Below, piece after piece: positions 2,656-60,443 of a DNA stretch of 64,000 nt. The notes below the pieces were generated by a model. That model worked only from the letters and a program-made list of their open reading frames with translations. It was not told the DNA's origin and made no database searches. The DNA is from Antedon mediterranea. Taxonomy: Eukaryota > Animalia > Echinodermata. The DNA lies in the NCBI RefSeq assembly GCF_964355755.1, contig NC_092671.1, positions 40,682,304 through 40,746,303 on the forward strand, read 5' to 3'. Within the stretch, counting starts at the first letter, position 1. The number at the start of each line of letters is the position of its first letter. The translations under genes and the position numbers were made by a program.

Positions 2656-3639
2656 ACAACAACACCCAACAATACACCAAAAAGGTAGGGGGTAATTGTC
2701 AGAGATGATATTGAGTGATAAAATATATTGCCTGTAACTTAACCTAGGTTAAATTGTTTAAATAAATAAGGGACGTGAATCTAGCATATCTCTCGAGTTC
2801 GTTATTATTCTAACTCTTAATTTTGGTAACTTATGTAGTTTTATGTGTTGGGTGTTCATTTCCCCATTCAATGTTTCCTTATTGAAGATGTGGCAAGATA
2901 ACTGCGTTATATAGAATTATTAGTATGTGCACAGGAAAAATATTTTAACTTTGCAGATGATACCAATGCCCTTATCAATCTTATTACATACATATTTGAT
3001 GTGGAGTTTCCAGCTTAAATTTTCGTTTATAGGCCTAATAATACCGTAAGAAAGTAATTTTTTATAATATTTTTAGGTTTGTACCATTAATTTTTGTGGG
3101 AATATTTTGTCTCGGTATTACGATTTTTTGTGTTGTGAAAATAACATAATTATAGTTTTATTTACATTTAGGACAAGTTTGTTTGCTTTGAACCATTCAT
3201 TAAATTTAGAGTTACGAACAAGCCATTCCTTGCTGGTCAGCAGAAGGCAGAGTTTTTTATTTCTCCATCATGGGGATATGAAGATACTGTACTTTCAGTT
3301 TTCTTGGCCATGGTTTCTTTTATAAAAAAAAAGTGCATCATTGCCATGTTGTTGAATATTCTTATTGAATGTATTAGTTATACAATCAATTAAATACTAA
3401 CTGTAGCTGTAGCGTGACTATTTCGCAATGTGTGTTTATTGTATAGATCTTATTGATTTGTTTTATTATACATCAGGTGAATATTTACATCCATTGAAAA
3501 TCAATTGGATTATTCCATTTAGGTTGCAGAAGTTGATTGGAAATTCTAATTAGCAATCTTTCTTTAATGAGATTTTTTCATCTTTAATTGACGATAGAAT
3601 GACTCATATTTTAATGAACCAATATAATAGTTTTAACTA

Positions 3640-4216
3640 GACTAGACACTCTTAATATCTCATCCACAATCGCCATTAGAGATTGTTATACTGTTCTATT
3701 TGTTTGCAATGTTTTACTTTATCATCAAAGATCTATTATTTATAATTTATTCATAGTTAATAATCGTCATGATACCCTCACTTTCAAGCATCTTTGCTTC
3801 AGTAATGATATGTCAAAATTTTTCATCCCGACCAGCTTCACTAGAACTTGGAATTCCATACCCAATGAGATTCGCGATATTTTTGTTAATGGTTCATTTA
3901 TTAATTTTAAATTATCTCTAAAGCAATATTTTAAATGTCGGAGAGAAACTTTTAACTTTTTCAATCATTTTTTTAATCTTGTGAAATGTCTATGTTATTA
4001 TAGTATATATATTCTTGTTTTTTTATAATTTTTGTGTTGGAGAGACATACCTTACCGGTGACAGCGTTTTGTTTAATGCTATTGTCTCTCATCGGCTTCG
4101 TGTCTTGTAGGCTACTTCAGATATATATATATATATATATTTCTTTCTTTGTTTTGTAATTATTATTTCATGTTTATTGCCGAAATTAATAAAATAAAAT
4201 AAAATAAATAAAATAA
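3640..4216 (+). mobile_element. 5'-truncated LINE 3' end (CR1/L2-like)
   Basis: Absent from the parent locus (~21760). Encodes an ORF2 C-terminal-like peptide FTRTWNSIPNEIR...FKLSLKQYF and ends in an (AAAAT)n tail. Confidence 0.6.
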
Positions 4217-4268
4217 CTTTTGTTTTTTTTTACATAATTTTGATTTTTTTTTCGAGATATCTGTTACA

Positions 4269-4843
4269 ATGACATCCAAAACAGGAGCTAGCGTTGATGT
4301 CGAAATAGCGGGCAACTCCGGAGACGCCGCCATACCTACCACAGCATCTAATCCAAGTGAACTTGCAAACCTCTCAAATGAGGCTCTCAATTCTCTCAGT
4401 GAAAAATTTGGAAGTAAGTCATATAATAATATTTGAAAAAGTTTGGGTTGATGGGTGCCTTTAAAAAAAATATTTCCTATGCTCACAATATTTTGATTTT
4501 TATAAGATGTTTGTGTAAATAAAATTGTGTACAAAGTTTAATGTTAATATGTTTATGATAAAAAGTACTGATCCCCTTTCCACTATGAATATATAACTTA
4601 AATTCTCATGGCTTATGTTTTCTCACTTTAAATTCCTTTTTTAATTAAAGTTCTTTTATATTTGGTTTTGTTCCGCTAGTACCTGTGTTTGCAGTAGTAG
4701 CTTCCATAGCTGCCCTATTATTAGGCCTAAAACTGTTATGTTGCTGCATATGTATTTTTAAGATGTGCTGCAAGAAAAAAAAAGGTCTGAAGGGCGTTGA
4801 CTTGACGAGTGTTTCCATGTTAGAAAACAGCTTAATGGAACAG
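4269..4843 (+). pseudogene. Duplicated synaptotagmin coding exons 1-2 (4269-4413, 4680-4843): lumenal, TM and polybasic region, open frame, no C2 domains
   Basis: Translates MTSKTGASVDVEIAGNSG...EKFG / [57 protein letters not shown] donors and the tag acceptor are retained. Functional status unknown. Confidence 0.8.
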
Positions 4844-5167
4844 GTATGTTATTTATTGTTCCGTCTTCATAGTATCTTGTGATGATGATATATTCATTTT
4901 TTACAATATGTAATAATACTAATAATAATAAAAATGTTAAATTGTGACTTTTAGAGCGCATGCTGATGCGCTTCACATAAAATAAAAGTAATCCCTGAAA
5001 AAATAAAATAAAAAAGAACAACTAAAAATTGGAGTGACAGGCCATAACATATAGACCTACTAGGTGACATAAAATATTATACAAATAATGAATGTGTAAG
5101 AGTGCAATGGTACAAATAATTGCATTATTTACCTATACATAACGTCTGTATTTTTATACATGTATAG

Positions 5168-9839: not shown

Positions 9840-11757
9840 TTACTTTCTGGTTTTTTGCCTCTTAATTATTTATATTTAAATTGTTATTTATTTTGTTTAC
9901 TTTGAAAGATAAAAATTAAGAAAATAAATGTTATTATGATGGATGAATGAATGAACTAACTAGGCCTAGGCCCTCTAGGCCTATCCAACTTGGCTAGGCT
10001 ACTAGGACCGACCCAATTATTGCTCTTTGCCAACGGTACTGTATCTTAAAATAATATATTAATGCTACTATAGGCCTAGGCCTAAATTGATCATAATTAT
10101 GCTCACAATCACTTATTTATTTCTTGTTTTTTGATGGGCCACACATGATAGCATAGACTATAAATATATATATATATATTATATATAAAGACAAAAAAAT
10201 AACAGTAATTTGATGTCTCAGCGGCATGCTTCGAGAGTTGTTACGTCGCGTATATTCACCACATATCTATCTTAGTCCTGGCAGCCGGCAACTGATCGCA
10301 TCGTTGGAGTTTTAATTAATTTCACATATCCCTGGAAAATAATGTATTTCATAATTCACGGGTTAGCTCATATCAGTGCTCAGTACAGTCGAGTTTGAAT
10401 CCTCAAAACTGTTTGAAACGGTATTTTTACTTCATTGAAAATGTGTGATGTTTTTTTAAAATAATGATTTAGATTGTGTTTCATATTGTACGGTATTCTT
10501 ATTGTACAGAGTTTGTCAATGATTTCAATCATCTTCTGGCCTGGTGATGTAGTACACAATGTTTAACCAAATGTAATTTAAACAAAAAGAAAATCAATCA
10601 ACTAACCTTCATAACTGATGAATTCAGTTAATAATTTCACAAATGTTTGTTACCGACATCTAAGTACTGTAATTACTGTGTACATACCTAATTGTGAGCA
10701 TTGGTAAAATCATTCCACATTTTGTTTTAGACATGACCATGATACTAGTACTGTATTATTGTTAATGTAAAGTGTTTTTTAAAAAGTTCAAGGATAACAT
10801 TTTTTTATTTCTGCCATGTGTATTTGATTGATTGTTACCTGGTTGAATATAAATGGGGTCCCCCTCCTAAATACCAGGGTCTACTACTAATTACTGTAGT
10901 CCAGCCAAGTGTATACAAAATATGATATTTAGTTAGTGCTATTACTAAGTGAATTTTCATTAATAAAAAATGTTGATATAAAGTTTGCGGACTTTCTCTA
11001 TTTTTCGCGTATGGAAAGGGTACAGAAAACATTTTTCAAAACAATTACTTTACTGTATTTCTGAATATTTAATATAAATAACCAAATTTCTCTATATTAA
11101 AATTGTTTTTCAATGTCTGATTACAAAAAAACAAATTAATTTTACTGTTTCAGTTTGAATCAAATGCAGGCCTTTACTGCAGTACCTACAGTATTATTCA
11201 ATCTGATTCAAATTGACAGGAACAGATGTTATATAAAATATAAATATTTTATATTTGTGGGATGGTACAAATACTGTACTTTAATATACAGATATTGACT
11301 GCTTAGAGGTTAAATATAAGATTTGACATCCCCGAGGGAATGATATTAAGTTCGAGTGTCATATTATAAATGTTGTGATTCTCTGTGTTTAGAGAAGGAT
11401 GCTTTAGACCAGGTCCGCCTTAATTAGCCAATCAAAATCGCATAAATTTTGGAGGGAAAATGTTATCCTCCTCTGAAGCCTAAAATTTGCATATCCAGTA
11501 TAAAAGTGGAATGTAATAGATATTAGGGGAGAAGAGAGAATAAGATCAGAGTAGATAAACGGAAAGATGATAAAGAAAATAAGGCTTAACTGGTACAGTG
11601 GTAGAAAGATGTATTATTAATCGAATTACAAGGAATAAATGTTCTAGTTGAGTTAAATATACTTTTTGTATGAGTTATCATTCAGTGACAGCTGTGTACG
11701 TCGCGTAGAAATATACGCCTGAGAAAGCTCGGAACCAACTAAGATAAATTCACTACA

Positions 11758-11771
11758 TGGTGGCAGCGGTG
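11758..11771 (+). other. Primer-binding site complementary to the tRNA-Leu 3' end
   Basis: TGGTGGCAGCGGTG directly follows the 5' LTR. It is the reverse complement of the ...CACCGCTGCCA-CCA end of metazoan tRNA-Leu(AAG/TAG). Confidence 0.8.
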
Positions 11772-12295
11772 AAAATTTTTGTTTACATGATTTAAGTATC
11801 AAGAAGAAGAAGAAGAAGAAGTGACAGTGCCTACTCTACGGGCCTGTTAAATCAGTAACCAAAAAGTTAAATGGTTACGAAGATCTGGATTCCTGACAGT
11901 TTTTATACCGTGCGTTGTTTGGATAATATTACAACGAAGAAGAAGTACAGTACTGTTGAGCTCAAGACTGCTGGATATTCATCGGAGATATATTCACCGA
12001 GATCTGAAAGAAGAAGACTGAAGTAACAGAAGGAAGCCCAGTAAATTTTGAGAAGATTTGCAAAGCTGACTTTGTAAACTATTTTTATTTCGAAAGTAAA
12101 TTTTTGTACGGAGCGAACTTGGAACGTTGTTTGTGACTTTGAAGTAAATTAATGTCTTATATTGTATTGCATTTAAAAATTTATGTGGATTTCATATTTT
12201 TACATATCTGAATGGAATCAAGGTAATACAAATACTTTTATAACATATTTTGTATACATAAGTTTACATATTTCATTAGTAAAATTGTTATTAGC

Positions 12296-13428
12296 ATGAC
12301 AACTTTAAGATCGGGTAAAAATATAGATAAGACTATGTCAGACAAAGATACTAGGAAAGATATGGTTGACCAAGAAGAGGTTGACCAAGTCAATGAAATA
12401 TATGATAAAATGGCTAGGGATATTGATGTGCCCGAAATACCCGGCGGTATGCCTAAAGATATGATGCTCGAATATTTTCGAATGAAGTTCGAGGCCGAAA
12501 ACAAAAAGTTAGAATTACAATACCAACAAGACCAATTAAGATTAGAAGCAGATATAGAGCAAAAGAAAATAGATATAGAGCAAAGAAAAATTGAATCACA
12601 AGAAAGAGTGAAAATGATGGAATTAGAAAATAGGTCTAGCTACAGTAATGCTAGGAATATAGTAGATGAAATGAAGGTAAAGGTTCCTACTTTGAAGGAA
12701 TCAGATGATATTGATATATATTTTAGAACATTTGAACACTTGGCAGAAGCCACAGGTTGGGATAAGAATACGTGGTCCGCTAGGTTAGCACCTGAACTGT
12801 CTGGTAAAGCTAGGACAGCATATGCATCCTTAACCGTAAAAGAATGTGTAGATTATGATACCTTAAAGAAGGCAATCTTAGAAAAGTATGATGTGTCCGC
12901 AGAGACCTACAGATTTAAATTTAGAAATTCAAACAGAGTTAAAGATATGTCCATCAGGGAATGGCTGAATGAGCTCTTCCATTATTTAAAATGTTGGATG
13001 AAATGTGCTAATGTACTGTAAAAGAAGATGATGCTGCAGGCATTATTGAAATGATTATAATGGAACAGGCACTTGATAAAATGCCTGAAGATCTGAGGCT
13101 TTATCTTAGAGATAAACAAGTAAATAAGAGCTATGATAGCCGATGATTATATAGCTAATAGAGGTGGCCGTGGCTATTGGAATGCCGTAAATTCTGAAAA
13201 TAAGCCTACGTATAAGGGCCAAGAAAATAGTAAACCTAAGAATGGTACGACTCAGAATAACCCTGGAGCTAGGCAGCAAGGATACAATAGGTATCGCGGA
13301 AGGGGAGGCAAATTCCATAACTACTGTATGGTAGAAATTTCCAACAGAGAGAACCTTCAAATGAATGGATTAATGGCCTATGCTTCAATTGTAAGGAGAA
13401 GGGACATAAAATAGGGGATTGTCCTAAG
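12296..13428 (+). pseudogene. gag: gag (frameshifted), ending in a CCHC zinc knuckle
   Basis: Coiled-coil region, then DIDIYFRTFEHLA...W...LSGKA. Frame breaks near 13015, 13125 and 13320. CFNCKEKGHKIGDC at 13381 is in the pol frame. Confidence 0.85.
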
Positions 13429-16400
13429 ATGGTAGCAAAAGGAAAGACTAGTGACACTAAGAAGGGCCCGAATGTGAAAGATAGCTTAAGATGTGAAGGA
13501 CTAAAATCAGATAGACCCCAAGTAGTTATAGATAGTGTAGAAAATAAAATGGAGAAATGTACAATACCAGGAAAATTAGAAGGACAGGATATAACTATGC
13601 TTAGAGACTCGGGATGTACCCAGTCAGCTGTTAAGGAAAGTCTAGTGCCTAACAAATGTTACTTGCCAGAAAAATGGGTTACGTTAAGAGGTATAGGAGG
13701 CGATATTACCGTCCCCTTAGCTGAGGTAGCTATAGAAAGTAAGATAGTGACAGGAAAAGTGATTGTAGCCGTAATCGAAGGATTACAGAGGGACATGTTA
13801 TTGGGTCATGATTTGGACCAGAATTGTGGGGAAACAATGGCTAAAGAAATGTTCGTCCTAACTAGGGAGCAAGCCAGAATAGAAAATGATGTTAGAATAC
13901 AAGACGAAATGATATTGTTAGGGAAAGATAGTAACTTTAAGCCGATAGAAGAGCCGCCTAAAGAAACTAATGTACAATTGTGGAAAACAGTAGTAAATGA
14001 CAACAAAATAAATAAAACTAAGTGTTTAGATGATATGAATGGAACAGAAATGAATAATTTGTTTGACGAAAATGAGGATAGAGCTAAAGATAAAACAGTC
14101 AAACATAAAACTTATGAACAACAGCACAAGCTGAACCTAACTAAACAAGAACTGATCAAATTGCAAACTAAGGATGACTCACTCAAAGGAGTGTTTGACA
14201 GGGTAGTCCCTATAGAAGAAATAGGTCAGCATAGGGTATGTTTCTTTATGAGACAAGGTATATTGATGAGAAATTGGAGTAGTATTAAAGATAAGAATAA
14301 CCAAGTGGAACAGATTGTATTACCCACTCAGTGTAGACAGGGTGTATTACACTTAGGTCATAATGTGCCATTTGCAGGTCACATGGGTGTTGAGAAAACT
14401 AAAAGTAGGGTCCTGAACCAATTCTATTGGCCAGGTATATTTAAAGATGTGGTAGTCTATTGTAAAGTCTGTAAGGAATGCCAAAAGGTAGATAAGGGTA
14501 AAAGTAAAAGGAAACATACTTTGATACCATTACCGATTATAAGTACACCATTTAAACGTATAGCGATAGATATTGTTGGACCCTTATCTAGAACAAGCCG
14601 TAATAACAAATATATGCTTACTATAATTGACTATGCTACAAGATATCCGGATGCTATCCCGTTACCCAATGTTAGAGCTGAAACAGTAGCCAGGGCTCTA
14701 ATAGAAGTCTTTACTAGAGTAGGATTACCCGAAGAGATTGTACATGATCAAGGAACTAATTTCATGTCTTCAATTATGCAATCTATAGGTAGTATGTTGG
14801 GGATTAATCAATTAAAGACTACAGTGTACCACCCCCAAAGCAATGGGCTTGTTGAAAGATTTCACGGTTGATTGAAAAATATGATAAGGACACTTACAGT
14901 TAAGCAAAGAAAAAATTGGGATAACTACATACCCCCCTTTCTGTTTGCATACAGAGAAGTTCCTAGTAAAGCGACGGGCCATTCACCTTTTAAATTGCTT
15001 TATGGTAGAGAGGTGAGGGGACCCTTGAGTTTACTCAAAAGTAATTGGGTAGAAGATGAAGAAACATCTACTGATGTTATCAAATACATGTTAGACATAA
15101 GAGAAAAAATGGAGGAATTAATGAAAGATGCTAATGTAAACAAACTTGAACAACAAGAAATTATGTCCCAAAATTATAACAAGAATGCTATTGATAGAGA
15201 ATTTGTAGAAGGGGACAAAGTGTTGATATTCCTTCCAGTAGGAAATAGTAAGTTAGACAGTAAATGGCAAGGCCCCTTCACTGTTACAAAAAAGGTCAAT
15301 GATGTAAATTATGAAATATACATAGGAGGTAGAAGAAAAGAAAAACAAATTCTACATGTTAATATGTTAAAGAGATTGTATGATAAAGTAGAAATAAGTA
15401 AAGATGGTTATTATGTAGTAACAAATGTTCAGTCGATAGAAGAAGTAGACTTAAATGAAACAGTCCATGACAATGAGTTAGATAGTGAAATAGACATAGG
15501 ATTGTCTTATCATCAATCACAAACATGGAGAGATGTTAACGTTAGTAGTAATTTAAATGATACACAAACTAAACAATTAACAGAATTGTTAAAGTACCAA
15601 CAGAATGTATTCTCGGATGTACCAGGTAGAACTCACTTAGTGACACATGAAATTAAGACTAATGGTGAAATGCCTATAAGGCATAGGGCATATAGAACGC
15701 CCCAAGCATTAAAGGGTAAATTGAAAGAAGAATTAGATAGTATGTTGGCTATGGGTATAATAGAACCTACAGTTAGTGCCTATGCTGCACCTATTATTGC
15801 CCTGAAGAAAGGCCATAATCAAATTAGAATGGTGACAGATTTTAGATCACTAAATAAGACTACACAATTTGACCCTTATGTTATGCCTTGCATAGACGAA
15901 ATGTTGGATGAGGTATCATCCGCAATATACATAACTACGTTAGATCTAACTAAAGGATTTTACCAGGTGCCTCTGGATCCTAAGACCAAAGACAAATCAG
16001 CATTTATTACACAATTTGGACAGTATTGTTACAATGTACTTCCATTTGGTATGCAAAATAGCTCTAGTACTTTTCAAAGATTAATGGATAAGGTATTACA
16101 AGGTACTGAAGGATATGCTAAGGCATATATAGATGACATATGTATTTATAGTCAAACTTGGAAAGATCATATTTTTCATTTGAATGATGTATTAGAAAGA
16201 TTAAGTAGTGCTGGATTGACAGCAAAGCCTTTGAAATGTAAAATTGCCTATGCACAGGTAGAATTTCTGGGGCATAAGATTGGTAATGGAGAAATTAGAC
16301 CCATGATTGATAAGGTTGAGGCTGTGGAAAAGTTCCCCAGACCTTTGTCTAAGAAACAAGTCCGATCATTTCTCGGATTAACGGGCTATTACAGAAAATT

Positions 16401-16926
16401 TGTACAGAACTATGCCGATATTGCTAAGCCATTGATTGATTTAACTTTAAAGAGTAAAAGTACCGTTAAGTGGAATGAACAATGTGAAAATGCCTTTGTA
16501 ACTTTAAAGAAACGACTTACTGATGATAATGTATTAAAAGCCCCAAATTTTGATAAGATGTTTATATTGCAAACCGATGCCTCAAATTATGGCATAGGTG
16601 CAGTGCTGAGCCAAATAGATGGTGAGGGTAATGATTATCCCATTGTGTACTTAAGTAGAAAGTTATCCGTACATGAGCAGAGATATTCTGTGCCAGAAAA
16701 AGAGTGCCTCTCTATTGTTTGGGCTATCAATAAACTTAAGTATTATCTGTATGGTTGTGAATTTCAAGTTCATACTGACCACCAGGCATTGAGATGGATG
16801 GACTCAATGAAGGGTGCCAATGTTAGACTTATGAGATGGGCTCTGTTTTTACAAGGATATAAATTTAAAGTTATTTACAAGAAAGGATCATTAAATGGAA
16901 ATGCAGATGGATTAAGCCGTGCATAA
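13429..16926 (+). pseudogene. pol: pol: protease, integrase, reverse transcriptase, RNase H; in-frame TGA at 14869-14871
   Basis: LRDSGC (PR); H..H..C..C plus AIDIVGP/VHDQGTNF/LVERF (IN); LDLTKGFYQV, PFG and YIDD (RT); QTDAS, EKE and TDH (RH). The two ORFs are in the same frame, separated only by a stop. Confidence 0.95.
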
Positions 16927-18849
16927 ATAATATTATAGAGGTGTTATTAGTAGATAGTTTAAAGTAAAATGGTTTTAAATGTTAAATTTTTGGAAAGATT
17001 GACACAATCTTTTTCCCAAAAAGGGGAATGTCATATTATAAATGTTGTGATTCTCTGTGTTTAGAGAAGGATGCTTTAGACCAGGTCCGCCTTAATTAGC
17101 CAATCAAAATCGCATAAATTTTGGAGGGAAAATGTTATCCTCCTCTGAAGCCTAAAATTTGCATATCCAGTATAAAAGTGGAATGTAATAGATATTAGGG
17201 GAGAAGAGAGAATAAGATCAGAGTAGATAAACGGAAAGATGATAAAGAAAATAAGGCTTGACTGGTACAGTGGTAGAAAGAAGTATTATTAATCGAATTA
17301 CAAGGACTAAATGTTCTAGTTGAGTTAAATATACTTTTTGTATGAGTTATCATTCAGTGACAGCTGTGTACGTCGCGTAGAAATATATACGCCTGAGAAA
17401 GCTCGGAACCAACTAAGATAAATTCACTACATCGAGGGAATATATATTTCCCGAAGCGCCAGCTGAGGGAAATATATATTCCCCTCGAACTTAATATCAT
17501 TCCCTCGGGGATGTCAAATCTTATATTTAACCGATATAAAAGGCAATATCTGTTATATTATATAGCCAAGAACAAGTCTGCTGGGTTGGGTGAAGCTAGG
17601 CTAGGCCTCCTATATTTGTATTGTATTAAAACAAGCCTGCCTAGACACCTTACCTTGCGAAGAATAATATACAGATAATTACTAATTAATGATTCCTTGG
17701 CAATAAAATATTCACTTAGGCCTAGGTCGTTTAAATTAACAGAAGAATTTCCATCAATAAGCCTATTAATAATAATATTATAATCAGGTAGGCCGAATAA
17801 AAATTTGTCTTCTTAACTTCTCTTCGAGGAGCCGAATCACCGGATTTTCAGCGCGTACTAGTTACTAGGTTACTACACAGTGAGTATTGACCAATCACAA
17901 ACGGTGTTTCATGACATTTAGGGTGGACTAATAACAAATGAGGGCGCTATGTATGCATAGCTTAAATAGTTTAGAAGATTAATTTCTTCAAGCAAGTTCA
18001 GTGGCGCAGCGGTTGAAGCATTGTCTTGCGATGGAGTGACAATTCCACCCGAGTTCAAGATCGAGTTGATGACTTTTGTTTATTTATCGGCAACGCGAGT
18101 GTTGGCACACGAAAATTACACAGTCAATATCATCGAACTCGAGAATCTATATGTTTAATGACAGGGGACACGATAATTACGCGAAAATTACACAGTCAAT
18201 ATCATCGTTCTCGAGGATATATACGATTTACGATCCTCGCAGCGGTAGTCATGTGATGCAGTTTCAACCAATCACGTTCGCGTATTTACATAGGCTATGT
18301 AATGTTGTCAATTAGTGAATGATGAAAGGTTATATTCATCATCCATGCAATTATTTGTACCATTCTACTCATAAACATTCATTATTTGTATCTTATTGAA
18401 GCATGGAGCTAATAAATTAACTCTATGGTAGAAGCAGTGTATTACAGTAGCAAATTCTTTACATTGGTACATGATTCACAATTTTTTTACACCAAAATTT
18501 GTAAAAAAAGCAGAATTTCATCGAATAAAATGCAATTTGACAAGACTGGATACTGTATAAATAAATGACATTTAGTTTTGTACAACATTGGTACAGCCAA
18601 TTTGAGTTATTAACATTATCAAACATTTTGTATAGATTATACACTTATTAACAAATAGTAATGTTTTTAAATTTCATTAATAAATTGTTAATGCATTCTA
18701 GTATGTACGGCCCCTCCTTTTCATAATGGAATCTTCCAATATTGATTATAATAATGAGGGTTCAGTTTGCTCTAATACTACAAAGATTATAGCATAGTTG
18801 GTGCTTTGAATTTTGCTTGGAAATATTCAACATATTTCTATATTTACAG

Positions 18850-21808: not shown

Positions 21809-29848
<8,040 letters not shown>

Positions 29849-55100: not shown

Positions 55101-57280
55101 TTGATTACTATGGTGGTTCACCTTATGATGCTATTGGCCAATCACAGCTTGTTATTCAAGGGCATTTAAGTAGAATACAGAGACAGATATTGGCATTAGT
55201 GCCGCGATATTGTATCCATGATCACTGGAATAAACGACTTAAATTAGCAAGTGAAAATGAAATTAAGGAAGAAGACAAAGAAAAGATACGCCTTTCACTA
55301 CTTGAGGTCAATTCAAATATCATTGCTTACTGTAGATCAGAGGTTTCTAGTACAGGTAGGTTTTATTTCTTTAAATGTTGCTGTTTTACTTATTGTTATT
55401 GTGCAACTGTTAAAACAATAATTGTTTTTAAATAAAAAGAATTCATTTTTTTATTAATTCATAAATGTAACTATTATTCAGGTTCAACTGGACAGTCCTG
55501 TAATGTTCTTTTTACACCTAGTTTATCTGAAGCATTGACAAGAAATTATCATCAAGTTACAGGTATCATTTTAGAACATTTTTTGTGAAAAATCATTAAT
55601 TTTAATTTAGTAATATAAATTATTGTTAATTATTATTTGTTAATTATTTTATTTGACTTAGAAATACCAATGGCATCCTTAAGTGCAACCAAACCTCCAA
55701 GTCTTGGTCTAATTGTACGACATTTGCAACAGGTGGCAAACACATTCTTACCATCATTTGACTCTCACCAACAATTAGTTCATAAGCTGTCAAACATTTC
55801 AGAATTATCTGCTGAAGAACTAAAAGAGGTAATATGTTTAAGGTTATTATACTATAACCAACTTCAATACCTATTATACTTTATTAAGGTACAGATATTG
55901 TATATTGAATTTTTTTTAACGCGCATTGAGCAGTGGTATGTGCGCTATATAAATCCATATTATTATTATTGTATTGTTAATACCTACAATGTAGATTTTT
56001 ATAACATAAAATGTGTATTTATTCTTCAAATTAGTTTATTAAACCAGTTTTGACAGACAGAATTGAGAAATTATCAACAAGTTATAGACAACAAGTAGCA
56101 TGTGAACAAATTGCTCAGATGATCTGTATGAAAGCCAAGGAACTTGCTCTTAAATACTGTATCCTTATCAAACTCAAACGTTATTCACTTTACTTTTTAT
56201 TCAAAATTCTCATAAAAACAAATACAAACATACGGAAACAAATACAAGACAACATCAACCACAAATGTCTGAGGTATTGATTGTATAAAAATTAGTTGGA
56301 ACTTTATTTTATGTTTTTCTATTCCTGAACACTCTAAAAAGATATTTTGGAGAATTGTCTTTTTCTGATTTGGCGCCATCTAGAGTTTTATTTCATTCAC
56401 TGCCAGCCAACTGACCTGAACAATTCCTTGTTACCACCGCTAATGTCAAGAACTCATCAAGCGAGGGATCTTGCTGGTAAGTTAACAAAATCTTTAGAAT
56501 TTATATCATTTTGCTACCTGTGACCACTCAGTTAATATCTGAACAATATTGTTTTTTAGACCCATTTAACTTGGATAGAAGTGGCATTGACGATGGAAGT
56601 GAGCCATTGACTGGAAATCAAACCAAGTCTATCTCTAAAGCCGATATTCAACAAGTAAGCTTTAATATACAGTATATATGATAAATTAATATTCACAAAC
56701 ACTAGACATTTCTTTCCAATCATTTCTCTAAACCTTATTACATTCTTATTCATTCATATTAATGGAAACTCACAACCACTATCATGTTTACCATTAGTTA
56801 AGCTCTGTCTACACTATCAAACTTTGTGTGAAAACAAAATTGATGTGCCCATATATGGCTATGATGATGTCATATCACTACCATATTTGGGCACATCACA
56901 CTTGACTTGTTTTGTCAAACTAGTTTGATAGTGTAGACAGAGCTTTAAACAAAAGCACAAAAAACATAGTAATATTTAAACAGCCTACATCTTCAGTGTT
57001 AATCTATTTCAATAATCATTTATTATTAATACCAGTATTACTACTGTATTACCACTTTAAATTTGTTTAGTATTGTATTTGAAAATGACAATTTCCTTTG
57101 TTTTTACAGCTAAAAGAAGAAGCGCTGAACTGCCTTACTGAGTCAGTTCTTCAGAAATTCCGAGACATTGAAACCCAATATGGCAAGACTGTGTCACGGT
57201 ACAGCTTTGTATCTGTCCTTGCCCGTCGAATCCGTAGACTTCTCACAATTGGAATTCAAACAGATATTCCTATTCGATAA
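37193..57280 (+). CDS. NUP205: Nuclear pore complex protein Nup205, ~36 exons
   Basis: Exon 1 37193-37226 (MAANNSVAVNL), then 40873-41015 (WSPYKDL...KPDLISLLKNP), 41331-41502 (SDLFDLNEYSAVELLLAG) and 41821-42125 (GLPRGLVAVLLYYDG...TWTLEL). Later exons include APNLAHFFLGFD and ALYIYESKM. Last exon 57110-57280. Matches recalled metazoan Nup205. Confidence 0.95.
37427..39652. mobile_element. Foldback/Mutator-like non-autonomous element in NUP205 intron 1
   Basis: Inverted aagtcgccccatcgca arrays (37438-37635 and 39445-39642) and 8-bp TSD AACTGTGT (37419-37426, 39653-39660). Confidence 0.88.
39908..40640 (-). mobile_element. Longer Helentron/DINE-like element
   Basis: Same termini and GACA/GACC microsatellite as 2546-2655, in reverse orientation, with ~550 bp of extra interior and a duplicated core. 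Confidence 0.65.
44419..44601. repeat. 60-bp tandem repeat x3
   Basis: acaagattatagagattttaaaccattgtacaccatttatgcataaaagtacacatttac. Confidence 0.9.
45161..45273 (-). mobile_element. Short Helentron/DINE-like element
   Basis: Near-identical reverse complement of 2546-2655. Confidence 0.7.
47026..47361. repeat. 67-bp tandem repeat x5
   Basis: caattacttgacaccctcatccaaaacaactcc...gttggtg. Confidence 0.95.
47785..48040 (-). mobile_element. Degenerate SINE
   Basis: The minus strand shows tccttaggcaagacactt and cacccaggtgtataaaatggggtacc, motifs recalled from conserved-core marine SINEs. Confidence 0.5.
51751..51896. mobile_element. Harbinger-like MITE (family of 56801)
   Basis: agccctgtctacacta...tagtgtagacagagat with TTA flanks. 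Confidence 0.8.
51936..53030. mobile_element. Non-autonomous DNA transposon, Harbinger-like
   Basis: TIRs tacccttttacactatc / gatagtgtaaaaggggta and 3-bp TSD TAG. Confidence 0.75.
54315..54640 (+). repeat. 29-bp hairpin minisatellite followed by an (AAAT)n tail, probably an amplified LINE/SINE 3' stem-loop
   Basis: Unit aatgatcagcttcggctggatggacccta repeated about 9-10 times. Confidence 0.75.
56159..56341 (+). other. U12-type (minor spliceosome) GT-AG intron of NUP205
   Basis: 5' splice site GTATCCTT; branch-site-like TTCCTGAAC (56322-56330) 11 nt before the 3' splice site; no polypyrimidine tract. Removal restores LKY-Y-ILENCLFLIWRHLE. Confidence 0.85.
56801..56944. mobile_element. PIF/Harbinger (Tourist-like) MITE
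   Basis: TIR agctctgtctacactatcaaact and TSD TTA. Confidence 0.88.
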
Positions 57281-57939
57281 AATGTTGCTACCCTTTTTGT
57301 ACAATTATTTTTTGCTTGTTTTTGGCCCTGACATTGTTAATGAAGTTGAAGTCAACTGAATGTTCACATTTTGTTCATACTCAATGAATATTTTAAAGCG
57401 GAAATTGTAGCTTTTGCCTGTACAGTAATTATACCAGTAGTGTATTGATATGGTTTTAATATATACCTATTACAAATATACATTTTACATATACATTTTT
57501 TTTCTACTTACATGTATTTAATACATTGAAATACAATATTTGTCAGTAAAGTTCCACATTCGAAATTTATAACTATAAACATTTTGTATGGCGAATAGGA
57601 ATACTGTAAGTTTAGTAGTTATCAATTTAAGTAAAATAGTAAAAATTGTCATTTGGTGTAGTATTGCATTCATGATTAAAACTGAATAATAATAATATCC
57701 AATACATTCTGCTATATAACAGTGATTAGCAGTTGAGTCATAAGTGACAATACTGTATTTTCACTGTTCACCAATATTACAAAACTTACAGGTTAACTTT
57801 TTGATCGTGATGTGCGACATGTCCGCCCTCCCGTCTTCATAATTGTTTTATACTTTTTACATCTGGTGTACTAATACTATTGCTGTATGTAGTCAATCTT
57901 TAATACACACTAAACTAAGTATCTTTATTCCTTTCATTG

Positions 57940-58953
57940 TCACATCGCCTGTCTTAATGTGCACCACTGCTGCAGTGTACTGCCTGGCTTTTTAAATATC
58001 AAGTCCAAATCTGTACTTAATGTATCGGATTGGCAACTATATAACGTTGTTTCCATCTGTGTTTTGCTAACGCTGAACAGGTTTTGTTTACGAACAGCCA
58101 CTACGATACTTATATTCTATGAAATGGAAGAAAATCAGTAGATAGTAATAGACTGAGCATTTTATATAAAACTCATTTTGTACATTAAAGAATGGAATTG
58201 TGATAAGGATGTCTAATTAAAAACGATTTACATAGATGATGTATAATGCAACGTTAATCGTCTTGTAAATAAAGAAAACGAAAATCAATAAGTGGAGAGG
58301 TAGAATCGTTGTATGTTATTCTATTACAGGTCTTTACACTCATTCTAGTGAACATTATTTCACATTTAGCTTACAGGTAGTAAAACTCGACTTCTTACCT
58401 TTGTCTTGTTAAGAGGAACATTAAAAATCAAAGTTTCGCCAAAAAATGCTGAAGATGTTACTTTTTTAACTGAAGTTTTTAGCTTTACAAAACATTCGTC
58501 ACCATCGAACAGTTGAACCGTTATGAATATTTCTATAAATAAAAATGTGATAAGTTTACTCTACTGTCCGTGTATATTGGTCGCACTGATAGACATTGCT
58601 ACTGCAGGAGAGACATTATTAAAACTTACTAGTGGCCTTCTCGAATAAAATGTTTCTTGCCTCGATCACATTCAATGTTAGTTTTTGCTTAGGTGGAACG
58701 TAGCGTAGACATAATAATATTTCCCCTCTTTTTATCTGTCATAGTAATATAAAAACATAGGATGAAAAAAATCAAACATTCACGGATTCTGCAGCTAATA
58801 TGCCTAACCCCAGTTAGAATAAATGTGTGTATGAACTGTATCAAGTCAAAACGGTGCCTAAGAGAAACAACATGGTGCCTTGGTTTTATATTTTCTTACC
58901 GGAGTGTTTTTCTTCATCCATGTAATTACTTTACTCTTAGATATATCAGCCAT
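57940..58953 (-). CDS. Solo C2-domain protein (synaptotagmin C2B-like, predicted Ca2+-independent), 156 aa, 4 coding exons
   Basis: Exons 58953-58900, 58735-58630, 58532-58399 and 58116-57940 all have AG acceptors; the first three end at GTAAG donors. They join without stops: MADISKSKVITWMKKNTP/IKRGEILLCLRYVPPKQKLTLNVIEARNILFEKATK/IFITVQLFDGDECFVKLKTSVKKVTSSAFFGETLIFNVPLNKTK/NISIVVAVRKQNLFSVSKTQMETTLYSCQSDTLSTDLDLIFKKPGSTLQQWCTLRQAM*. AATAAA lies ~10 nt after the stop. Confidence 0.85.
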
Positions 58954-60443
58954 CTGTAAAAAGAATACTAAACCGGTTCGTTTTCACTACACACTTACTT
59001 AATTGTGTAGGCCTAAGTAGCTAAATATGAAAACATACTGAATCAAATCAAATCAAACAAGTAATTATCTGAACAAATCAAACTGACGGGTAAACTTCTG
59101 AACATAGGTTCAGCTTTTAGGCGTAGGAATCTTCAGTAATATTAATAATTTGTAGCAAATCGTGATGCATTTCACCTTTAAACGTCTATGCCTATTATTC
59201 ATAATAATCTATAATTGTTGCTCGGATTAAAGTCTCGTGAGTTACCAATCAATAGATTTATTTTGCATTCAATGACTACTTCGGAGATTATAATAATGGA
59301 CACGCTGCTTGCATTCAATGACTACTTCGGAGATTATAATAATGGACACGCTGCTTAACCACGCCGAGGGTATATTCTATCCCTTTTTCTATTACAGATT
59401 CACTATTTTGGCCAAATACAGGTAAATACTACAATGGATTGCTTAAATTAGAAGCGATTTTTTTATTATGATTAACCTTAACAGTTTCAAATCACTTAAT
59501 TTTATTTCTGAACCTCAGTCTCTGTGTCGTCCTTGTTCATTGTCCACACTTCATAGAATCAGTATTACAAAAGCATTGACCAATTTATAGGTCCATGGTA
59601 TAAGTAGGCCTATACTACTAACACAATTCTTTAAAACAAATCATTCAAGTTTCAAAGTGAGAACCTCATGCAGCTCTATTGTTGTCTTTGCTCAGCCCCA
59701 AGCATGGTGGGGTACTGAAGATTCTGATACATAAAAAAAATAATAGATGTAGGCCTACATTTCCGGGGATATTGCAGCTCTATTAAACAGTTAGGTATGC
59801 CGTGTGTTCTTATTCAAATTCAAATTTATTTACCTCCCTCAGGAAAAACAAATAAAAACTGTACAATAAAAGACACCAAAATGAAGATTCACACGAATCA
59901 AAAGATTCAAATGGTTTAAAAAACAAGTTAAATAAAGTGTTGCTGATGTTGTTAGGGGACAATACATCTTTAAAGATGCAAAGAATATATTGTTTTGAAA
60001 ATGTTTACTCACCTTGACCAAAAATTGAAACACACAAACAAAGTATTTACCTGAAAAAAACTGTAATTTAAATTAAAATAGTCGGATAAAATCGAAGTCA
60101 AGTGAGGTTTTGGTAGCGAATTTAATCGTTTTTTTGTCATTTTACATAAAGTGTAACATTATTTTTTTTCTATAGAAATAGAAGAATATTAACTTTGTTA
60201 AAACTACAAAATGGCCTATTCAAAGTCTGATTTTATTAATCTTAATTTTTCATGTATTTGGGGGACAATACATCTTCTTACGGTCCTCCCCTCCGATCCG
60301 ATCTATGTTGTGTCTACTATATCGTGTTCATTCACGCATGACTGTGATCTGCGGCATGCGATATGTGAACTATTGCATGCTTTTTTGCAGACCGCATGCA
60401 GTGTGTACGTGTATTGTCGGGGTCGGATGTCATTCAATTTAAC

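What the first reader, a model, noticed from the sequence alone, without database searches (positions are those of the whole stretch)
57940..58953. Hidden intact gene for a solo, Ca2+-blind synaptotagmin C2B-like protein
Seen: four minus-strand exons, none in the ORF track, splice into a 156-aa ORF with a polyA signal. The last three align with exons 6-8 of the synaptotagmin in this window: GEILLCLRYVPPKQKLTLNVIEARNI vs [36 protein letters not shown] vs [15 protein letters not shown] vs QWHTL. Intron phases match (0/1/0) and the middle exon is 134 nt in both. By my alignment all five Ca2+-ligand Asp positions are lost: loop 1 ILFEKATK is shortened and loop 3 reads VRKQNLFSVSK. No TM or C2A is visible. 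Established: synaptotagmins normally have TM-C2A-C2B, and isolated C2B fragments can interfere with exocytosis. Inference: this is an old, diverged but maintained soluble C2B-only paralogue, possibly a Ca2+-independent membrane or SNARE modulator.
Basis: partly seen in the sequence, partly recalled or inferred. Interest (0 to 1): 0.85.

Follow-up and report, generated by a model that had tools for sequence, protein, structure and literature searches.

The report
Stand-alone calcium-blind synaptotagmin C2B gene
A feather star has a small gene, also found in a second feather-star genus, that encodes only the second C2 domain of a synaptotagmin, with lysines at three of the five calcium-binding positions, so it likely binds negatively charged membranes without calcium.

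Summary
The gene is real. Four GT-AG exons (58953-57940, minus strand) give 156 aa that match the Syt1 C2B domain end to end (53 bits; C2A 13.8; best of 1000 shuffles 10.7). One RNA assembly holds the exon 1-2 junction, and one short contig links an upstream exon with an in-frame stop, so no TM or C2A is added. Junctions 2 and 3 were not seen; those exons lie antisense in the NUP205 3' UTR. Anneissia japonica has a 193-aa single-C2 orthologue (56% identical; automatic RefSeq name) that folds like Syt1 C2B. Ligands D2, D3 and D5 are Lys in both species; D4 is N/Y; D1 is ambiguous. The SNARE-binding R398/R399 pair and most of the polybasic strand are lost, which weakens the 'SNARE modulator' idea. 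Best reading (about 0.5): a soluble, Ca2+-independent binder of anionic membranes through cationic top loops. A second apparently C2B-only gene lies 250 kb from Syt1, and trees place both beside Syt1 with moderate support. One-C2 and TM-less synaptotagmins are each known, so this is a new variant, not a new kind. Function is untested.

The parts
59195..59217 (-). 3' part of an upstream, apparently non-coding exon; in the RNA contig it carries an in-frame TAA just before the start codon
   Evidence: one 80-nt X1 contig, depth 3.3, joins 59195 to 58954 with 2 unplaced letters; only 23 nt lie on this side. The 23-mer is unique in the genome. X1 also has a contig at 59304-59464.
58900..58953 (-). 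Coding exon 1 (18 aa, starts at ATG, directly after an AG acceptor); conserved in the Anneissia orthologue
   Evidence: junction to exon 2 in an RNA contig
58630..58735 (-). Coding exon 2: C2B strands 1-2 and shortened Ca2+ loop 1; keeps the equivalents of Syt1 R281, K288, E295
   Evidence: RNA junction 58900/58735, ends CT..AC, depth 3.8, in 0 of 3 DNA runs
58399..58532 (-). Coding exon 3 (134 nt): strands 3-5; D2 position is Lys; polybasic strand eroded; Y338 equivalent is Phe
   Evidence: (Pfam C2 E=0.046 alone, below cut-off); its junctions were not seen in RNA
57940..58116 (-). Coding exon 4: strand 6, loop 3 (D3 Lys, D4 Asn, D5 Lys), strands 7-8, TGA; R398/R399 equivalents are Gly/Ser
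   Evidence: this exon alone found the orthologue at 58% identity, E=7.5e-7
57924..57929 (-). AATAAA 11 nt after the stop codon, likely polyadenylation signal
   Evidence: Sequence; use not shown
57281..58572 (+). Likely 3' UTR of the NUP205-family gene, overlapping exons 3-4 and intron 3 on the opposite strand; AATAAA at 58538
   Evidence: one X1 contig runs 56342-56475 spliced to 57110-58572; stop and AATAAA; Nup192/205 family in 3 of 5 exons tested. Contigs carry no strand or true end.
28483..29848 (+). C2B exons of the full-length synaptotagmin-1 in the window, the likely source of the duplicate
   Evidence: (P0001)

Best explanation
This is an intact, spliced gene for a stand-alone synaptotagmin C2B domain with no transmembrane anchor and no C2A, conserved in two feather-star genera, likely derived from the last exons of Syt1, whose protein is predicted not to bind Ca2+ and likely docks on anionic membranes through its lysine-filled top loops. 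Shown: the ORF, the C2B homology, one coding splice junction, the orthologue, and Lys at ligand positions D2, D3 and D5 in both species. Predicted: the C2B fold (modelled for the orthologue) and loss of Ca2+ binding. Inferred: in Syt1, bound Ca2+ neutralises the acidic loops so that they can engage the membrane; here fixed lysines would do that permanently. Net charge of loops 1+3 is +4 here and +6 in Anneissia, against -2 in Syt1, and an aromatic residue stays at the loop-3 tip. The side face that binds PIP2 and SNAREs in Syt1 has turned partly acidic (DGDE in both species), so the domain would bind loops-first and be a poor SNARE clamp. It would act as a soluble, always-on membrane adaptor or weak competitor in vesicle traffic. 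Odds: real protein-coding solo C2B about 0.9; this membrane mechanism about 0.5.
For: ORF and splice sites. C2B profile 53.0 bits against 13.8 for C2A and at most 10.7 for 1000 shuffles. RNA junction absent from 3 of 3 DNA runs, with zero X1 depth in bins 58738-58798 and 58982-59164. Orthologue XP_033102052.1: 193 aa, one Pfam C2 at 39.7 bits (cut-off 22), 98 of 174 columns identical including exon 1, on a contig of the same length (5,844,021) as Anneissia Syt1. AlphaFold model of the orthologue: pLDDT 70, pTM 0.68; the top 10 Foldseek hits are Syt1 C2B structures, E about 1e-12 to 1e-11. Ligand table; loop charges counted by hand from the alignment; pI 9.6. Syt1 origin: R281 together with an aromatic residue at 338 occurs only in Syt1, this gene, its orthologue and L001, and in 0 of 13 other paralogous C2B domains; the group with Syt1 has 90/89 support. 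Precedent: the non-Ca2+-binding, basic Syt11 C2B binds acidic liposomes and competes with Syt1 without Ca2+ (PMC12819558, passages); the loop aspartates repel membranes until Ca2+ neutralises them (PMC8164606, passages).
Against: No binding was measured. Junctions 2 and 3 were not seen in RNA. All RNA evidence comes from one run whose RNA label is the tool's guess and whose tissue is unknown, at contig depth 3-4. The 5' closure rests on one contig with 23 nt on its short side. Whole-domain pI (9.6) is no higher than that of Syt1 C2B (9.4), and the lysine cluster that usually binds PIP2 is partly lost (K313, K321, R322, K324, K326 changed; K325, K327 kept). Isolated Syt1 and Syt9 C2B domains bind PS weakly (PMC2172790 section 8). 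The conserved W390 of the C2B helix is Leu in both species, and model confidence is below 50 at residues 152-159. The protein evolves fast: 61% C2B identity between the two species, against 92% for Syt1 over 406 columns. Coding SNPs are 3 synonymous of 4, but all are transitions and P=0.12 on that basis. The place next to Syt1 is unstarred in both trees and unresolved under the mixture model.
Confidence: 0.5

Rival explanations
1. It is a soluble SNARE-binding modulator: it occupies the Syt1 primary-interface site on SNAP-25/syntaxin and, being Ca2+-blind, dampens or clamps release like a dominant-negative C2B.
For: R281, K288, E295 and an aromatic 338 are kept in both species at only 25-28% identity to Syt1; these belong to the primary interface (PMC11213007, PMC7498268, passages). 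Ca2+-pocket mutants of Syt1 C2B are dominant-negative (PMC5617632, passages). Isolated C2B inhibits secretion from cracked PC12 cells (PMC2172790).
Against: R398/R399 are G/S in both species, and R398Q/R399Q abolishes binding through this interface. The polybasic SNARE-binding mode is also eroded. In Drosophila the dominant-negative effect needs intact Ca2+ binding by C2A, which is absent here. Exon 2 is the best-conserved part overall (46% to Syt1), so keeping three residues there is only suggestive.
Confidence: 0.2
2. It is a protein-interaction module that has left exocytosis: the C2 fold is kept as a scaffold for another partner and the basic loops bind a protein, an inositol phosphate or a nucleic acid rather than a bilayer.
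For: Both canonical Syt1 surfaces are degraded, while new motifs (DGDE hairpin, the PLNKTK loop, the N-terminal WMKK segment) are identical in both species. Asp-less synaptotagmins are suggested to use C2 as a protein-interaction module (PMC8164606).
Against: The changes shared by both species put Lys exactly at the membrane-facing Ca2+ ligands, and the loop-3 aromatic tip is kept. No partner is indicated by any result.
Confidence: 0.18
3. It is a slowly decaying duplicate whose protein does little; any role lies in antisense overlap with the NUP205 3' UTR.
For: Low contig depth, an unspliced exon 1/intron 1 contig, and no junction seen for exons 3-4. Fast divergence. Apparently absent from the protein collection for this species. 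A 79-nt presence/absence allele sits at the upstream exon's 3' end.
Against: The reading frame and 56% identity are kept across two genera, with an in-frame length change in loop 1. No frameshift or nonsense variant lies in the CDS in 5 of 5 runs laid (at most 2 samples), while a 15-nt indel falls in the intron at 58971. The predicted fold of the orthologue is intact.
Confidence: 0.08
4. It is the 3' end of an ordinary divergent synaptotagmin whose TM and C2A exons lie further upstream.
For: The ATG follows an AG acceptor in phase 0, as an internal exon would. The 5' end is known from one short contig only.
Against: That contig has an in-frame TAA just before the ATG. A head-to-head aldehyde-dehydrogenase gene begins about 1.5 kb upstream. 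No C2A exon reached 7 bits upstream in the window or in the next 10 kb, while the three C2A exons of the window's Syt1 scored 26-104 bits. The Anneissia gene model also starts here.
Confidence: 0.04

Closest known systems
Synaptotagmin-1 C2B domain (PDB 6u4w, 1uov, 1k5w; window gene P0001)
   Same: Sequence homology over the whole domain, 0/1/0 introns with a 134-nt exon, predicted fold, and the R281/K288/E295/aromatic-338 signature.
   Different: No TM, linker or C2A; ligands D2, D3, D5 are Lys; R398/R399 and most of the polybasic strand lost; only 25-28% identical.
XP_033102052.1 'synaptotagmin-C-like', Anneissia japonica (automatic RefSeq name)
   Same: Orthologue: single C2, same N-terminal segment, same three Lys, G/S at 398/399; 100/100 support as a pair.
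   Different: 193 aa, with a 13-residue longer linker and longer ends; loop 3 more basic. No study of it turned up in the paper searches.
Syt18 group and one-C2 or TM-less Syts of Craxton 2010 (PMC2823689)
   Same: Single-C2B forms occur in Syt18 (Lottia, Xenopus, fish); some Nematostella Syts have one C2 and some lack a TM.
   Different: By eye, Syt18 sequences are about 400-500 aa, most have an N-terminal hydrophobic segment and a degenerate C2A region, and their C2B strand 1 reads LQYQ, not LRYV. Not tested in a tree.
C. elegans SNT-3 (snt-3 of Craxton 2010)
   Same: A separate Syt1-like gene without a TM domain.
   Different: It keeps tandem C2 domains and is described as a Ca2+ sensor (PMC7883739, listing only).
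Ca2+-independent C2 domains (Syt11 C2B; Slp-4/granuphilin C2A)
   Same: Works-like comparison: basic C2 domains that bind anionic lipids without Ca2+ (PMC12819558 passages; PMC7857503 abstract).
   Different: They are parts of larger proteins and keep a lysine cluster on the side; here that cluster is eroded and the charge sits in the former Ca2+ pocket.

Membership tests
C2 domain (PF00168) | Profile match above the curated cut-off | tested here: met
   Orthologue 39.7 bits against cut-off 22. The window's exons alone stay below cut-off (14.4 bits). The spliced protein was scored only against my own Syt1 C2B profile (53.0 bits), not against Pfam.
C2 domain (PF00168) | C2 beta-sandwich fold | tested here: met
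   Predicted for the orthologue only: Foldseek to Syt1 C2B, TM-score 0.8 by target length, rmsd about 3 A.
Synaptotagmin (canonical architecture) | N-terminal transmembrane helix | tested here: not met
   Best 19-residue hydropathy 1.11 (orthologue 0.92) against 3.32 for Syt1; upstream in-frame stop in one RNA contig.
Synaptotagmin (canonical architecture) | Tandem C2A-C2B | tested here: not met
   One C2 only; no C2A exon upstream in the window or the next 10 kb; orthologue has one C2.
Synaptotagmin gene family (by descent) | C2B homology and shared intron positions | tested here: met
   The intron pattern is shared with Syt1, L001 and L012.
Syt1 group | Groups with Syt1 in a C2B tree | tested here: inconclusive
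   LG+G4, 18 rows (3 long rows, 10 Syt1 rows and the C2A outgroup left out): 90/89, unstarred; union with L005 or L006 rejected at p-AU 0.036 and 0.032, with L004 not rejected (0.055). Mixture model, 34 rows: placement open.
Ca2+-sensing synaptotagmins | Five acidic ligands D1-D5 in C2B | tested here: not met
   D2, D3, D5 = Lys in both species; D4 = N/Y; D1 ambiguous.
Ca2+-sensing synaptotagmins | Measured Ca2+-dependent lipid binding | not testable with these tools
   Needs purified protein.
Syt1-type SNARE-binding C2B | Primary interface region I (E295, Y338) plus R281 | tested here: met
   E, F and R in both species; sequence only.
Syt1-type SNARE-binding C2B | R398/R399 and intact polybasic strand | tested here: not met
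   G/S at 398/399; 2 of the 7 polybasic residues listed in PMC7498268 (K325, K327) kept.
Syt18 group | Syt18-type C2B sequence and long N-terminal region | tested here: inconclusive
   Compared by eye with Additional file 37: motifs and length differ; no Syt18 sequence was available for a tree.

The most novel reading that the evidence does not exclude
Feather stars have a small family of stand-alone C2B genes (this one and L001) copied from Syt1, showing stepwise conversion of the Ca2+ pocket (ligands D,D,E,N,K in L001; Lys at three positions here). The end product is a natural, permanently 'Ca2+-loaded' C2B mimic that competes with Syt1 for membrane or SNARE sites and tunes exocytosis: a separate gene that acts as a soluble inhibitor or primer of synaptotagmin-1.
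Probability: 0.15. Interest if true: 0.75.

Novelty: new variant of a known kind. Interest (0 to 1): 0.45.

Why it matters
It is a natural charge-reversal version of the most studied Ca2+ sensor domain, kept by selection in two genera. It offers a direct test of whether fixed lysines can stand in for bound Ca2+ in C2B membrane docking, and of what C2B can do without its anchor, C2A and R398/R399. It also shows a conserved gene that the protein collection lacks for this species, lying antisense in a neighbour's 3' UTR. Its reach is limited: so far two crinoids, with no functional data.

Tried and rejected
Orthologue searches: exon 3 with flanks against proteins of 113-2000 aa gave 0 of 23 candidates at E<=1. 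A profile of the orthologue plus the four exons against proteins of 9-338 aa gave 1 of 798, the orthologue itself. Exon 4 against 1.84 billion representatives gave 3 hits; P0122 (3640 aa, 6 stretches) and P0123 (349 aa, 5 stretches, unnamed ENA cluster) were set aside as repeat-like chance hits without further test. These searches need shared words or use one short exon, so absence outside crinoids is weak. ESM Atlas: exon 4 gave nothing; the orthologue gave generic C2 clusters named Syt14-, Syt17- and Syt13-like, which I do not take as family assignment. No RNA holder was on record; X1 was treated as RNA because its contigs skip introns of three genes. Junctions 2 and 3 were not found: the exon-2 contig ends at 58660, inside the exon, and the NUP205 contig covers the rest, so this is no evidence either way. 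dN/dS could not be computed, since no Anneissia DNA was available. The window's own spliced protein was not folded or scanned with Pfam as a whole; the orthologue stood in. No complex prediction was run. The SNP argument is weak (P=0.03 over all changes, 0.12 for transitions). No N-terminal, TM or C2A exon was found for L001 in the 33 kb fetched upstream. No Antedon-Anneissia divergence date was found. Earlier scan notes: nothing. Paper searches listed no description of a crinoid C2B-only gene; I judged most listings by title and abstract start, the library lacks most subscription papers, and 35 of 50 Craxton supplements were not searched, so a TM-less single-C2B gene could be listed there.

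Full report
Observation. A profile of 115 Syt1 C2B domains aligns over positions 15-156 at 53.0 bits; the C2A profile (112 sequences) gives 13.8, and the best of 1000 shuffles 10.7. Exons 2 and 3 alone retrieve synaptotagmin chains first in the PDB. The window's full-length synaptotagmin matches P0001, labelled synaptotagmin-1-like of Antedon mediterranea, so this is a feather star.

Transcription. No run was on record as RNA, but run X1 behaves as one: its contigs skip the introns of both neighbours. It holds the exon 1-2 junction (58900/58735, ends CT..AC, depth 3.8), found in 0 of 3 DNA runs, and has zero depth in bins 58738-58798 and 58982-59164. A second contig (80 nt, depth 3.3) joins exon 1 to 59195-59217, a 23-mer unique in the genome; read in frame it places TAA directly before the start codon. 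Two letters at that joint fit neither side. DNA runs X4 and X5 hold an allele with 79 extra bases at exactly 59194/59195, so I infer that the donor lies in that insertion; I did not see its letters. On the window's haplotype the donor is unknown; the next GT at 59175 would add nine residues after an in-frame TAG (read). Junctions 2 and 3 were not seen: the exon-2 contig stops at 58660, and 57110-58572 is covered by one unspliced contig of depth 179 that is spliced to the previous NUP205 exon. So exons 3-4 lie antisense in the likely NUP205 3' UTR, whose AATAAA (58538) is the reverse complement of the exon-3 polypyrimidine tract. Contig depth does not measure expression, and this is one sample of unknown tissue.

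Conservation. Exon 4 searched against 1.84 billion representatives gave 3 hits, the best P0121: XP_033102052.1, 'synaptotagmin-C-like', Anneissia japonica, 193 aa. It has one Pfam C2 (39.7 bits), no TM, and 98 of 174 columns identical to the spliced protein, exon 1 included. Its contig has the same length as that of Anneissia Syt1, which suggests the same scaffold; the gene order there was not seen. Syt1 is 92% identical between the two species, so this gene evolves much faster but keeps its frame. Among the 5 runs laid (at most 2 samples) the CDS shows 4 substitutions, all at third positions, 3 silent and one I4M, and no indel; a 15-nt indel lies in the intron at 58971. This is weak support (P=0.12 for transitions). 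A profile search returned only the orthologue, 1 of 798 candidates, and an exon-3 search of longer proteins returned 0 of 23, so the gene appears to be missing from the collection for this species, and no relative outside crinoids was detected, although sea star, urchin, brittle star and sea cucumber Syt1 proteins are in the collection.

Is it really solo? No upstream C2A exon reached 7 bits in the window or the next 10 kb, whereas the window's Syt1 C2A exons scored 26-104. The dehydrogenase transcript starts head-to-head at about 60413. With the in-frame stop and the Anneissia model, three lines point the same way.

Origin. C2B domains of 14 other paralogues were pieced together from the genome; the searches score only the best candidates, so the set may be incomplete. 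One of them, L001 (G000:C2:40461064-40462349, about 250 kb from Syt1), has the same 134-nt exon, is 44-49% identical to Syt1 C2B, and shows no TM or C2A exon before the next upstream gene, an SH3-containing MAGUK-like gene about 12 kb away. It looks like a second C2B-only gene; no RNA or orthologue was checked for it. In a 34-row mixture-model tree (P0034 dropped for a long insert) the query pair is 100/100 on a long stem, sister to L001 at 83/58, with the backbone open. In an 18-row LG+G4 tree (three long paralogues, ten Syt1 rows and the outgroup left out) the three group at 94/94 and join Syt1 at 90/89; unions with L005 or L006 are rejected at p about 0.03, with L004 not rejected (0.055). 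R281 plus an aromatic residue at 338 is found in Syt1, L001 and the query pair, and in 0 of the 13 other paralogues. A Syt1 origin is likely, not proven. The shared 134-nt exon also occurs in L012, so it is not diagnostic.

Anatomy and mechanism. The orthologue's model (35-row alignment that includes 31 Syt1 proteins, so it leans toward that fold; pLDDT 70, pTM 0.68) matches Syt1 C2B structures best. Of the five ligands (D1-D5 as named in PMC5617632), D2, D3 and D5 are Lys in both species, D4 is Asn or Tyr, and an acidic residue stands one position before D1. One acid beside three lysines is very unlikely to hold Ca2+ (inference). Loops 1 and 3 together carry +4 here and +6 in Anneissia against -2 in Syt1 (counted by hand), and Phe stays at the loop-3 tip. 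In Syt1 the aspartates repel the membrane until Ca2+ neutralises them (PMC8164606, passages), so fixed lysines would give Ca2+-free docking. Basic, non-Ca2+-binding Syt11 C2B does bind acidic liposomes and competes with Syt1 in the absence of Ca2+ (PMC12819558, passages). Against this, overall pI is like that of Syt1 C2B, only K325 and K327 of the polybasic set remain, and isolated Syt1 C2B binds PS weakly. For SNARE binding the evidence is split: region I (E295, aromatic 338), R281 and K288 are kept, but R398/R399 are Gly/Ser in both species, and mutating that pair abolishes primary-interface binding in rodent Syt1 (PMC11213007 and PMC7498268, passages). Rodent residue numbers come from these papers where cited and otherwise from recall, mapped by motif onto P0001.

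Comparison with what is known. Craxton 2010 (PMC2823689: passages, section 7, supplements S37 and S38, first part of S42, and a term search that left 35 of 50 files unsearched) records single-C2B Syt18 forms, one-C2 and TM-less Syts in Nematostella and Capitella, and TM-less snt-3. Each loss is therefore known; I did not find both losses together with a Lys-filled pocket in a Syt1-derived gene in the searches run. It belongs to the synaptotagmin gene family by descent but fails the canonical architecture and the Ca2+-sensor test; it would work like a Ca2+-independent C2 domain.

Verdict. Observation confirmed, interpretation partly supported. A real, conserved, fast-evolving stand-alone C2B gene of feather stars (about 0.9), most likely a Ca2+-independent anionic-membrane binder (about 0.5), less likely a SNARE clamp (0.2). 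New variant of a known kind; interest 0.45.

Noticed in passing
L001 (G000:C2:40461064-40462349, minus strand): Second apparently C2B-only Syt1-like gene: same intron pattern and 134-nt exon, ligands D,D,E,N,K, polybasic strand largely kept, no TM or C2A exon found upstream; first exon unknown.
   Followed up: partly
window 3378-4857 (+): Partial duplicate of the Syt1 5' region (first coding exon 96% identical in protein; TM exon with in-frame indels; 79-94% DNA identity); no linker or C2 exons follow.
   Followed up: partly
window about 11280-17560: LTR retroelement between the Syt1 partial duplicate and Syt1, with gag- and pol-like frames broken by stops and LTRs 98.5% identical over 407 nt; family assignment (Gypsy-like) is from recall; observed only.
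   Followed up: no
window 57281-58572 (+) and 58538-58543: The likely NUP205 3' UTR overlaps exons 3-4 antisense, and its AATAAA doubles as the polypyrimidine tract of the exon-3 acceptor on the other strand.
   Followed up: partly
window 59194/59195: 79-nt presence/absence allele in DNA runs X4 and X5, exactly where the upstream exon is joined to exon 1 in the RNA contig; the window's haplotype lacks it and may use another donor.
   Followed up: partly
window 59460-60413: The gene and the aldehyde dehydrogenase are head-to-head within about 1 kb and may share a promoter; the interval holds high-copy repeats.
   Followed up: no
L001:2931-4052 (+) (G000:C2:40458930): Intronless 374-aa frame with several hydrophobic segments, GPCR-like by eye, just downstream of the L001 C2B gene.
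   Followed up: no
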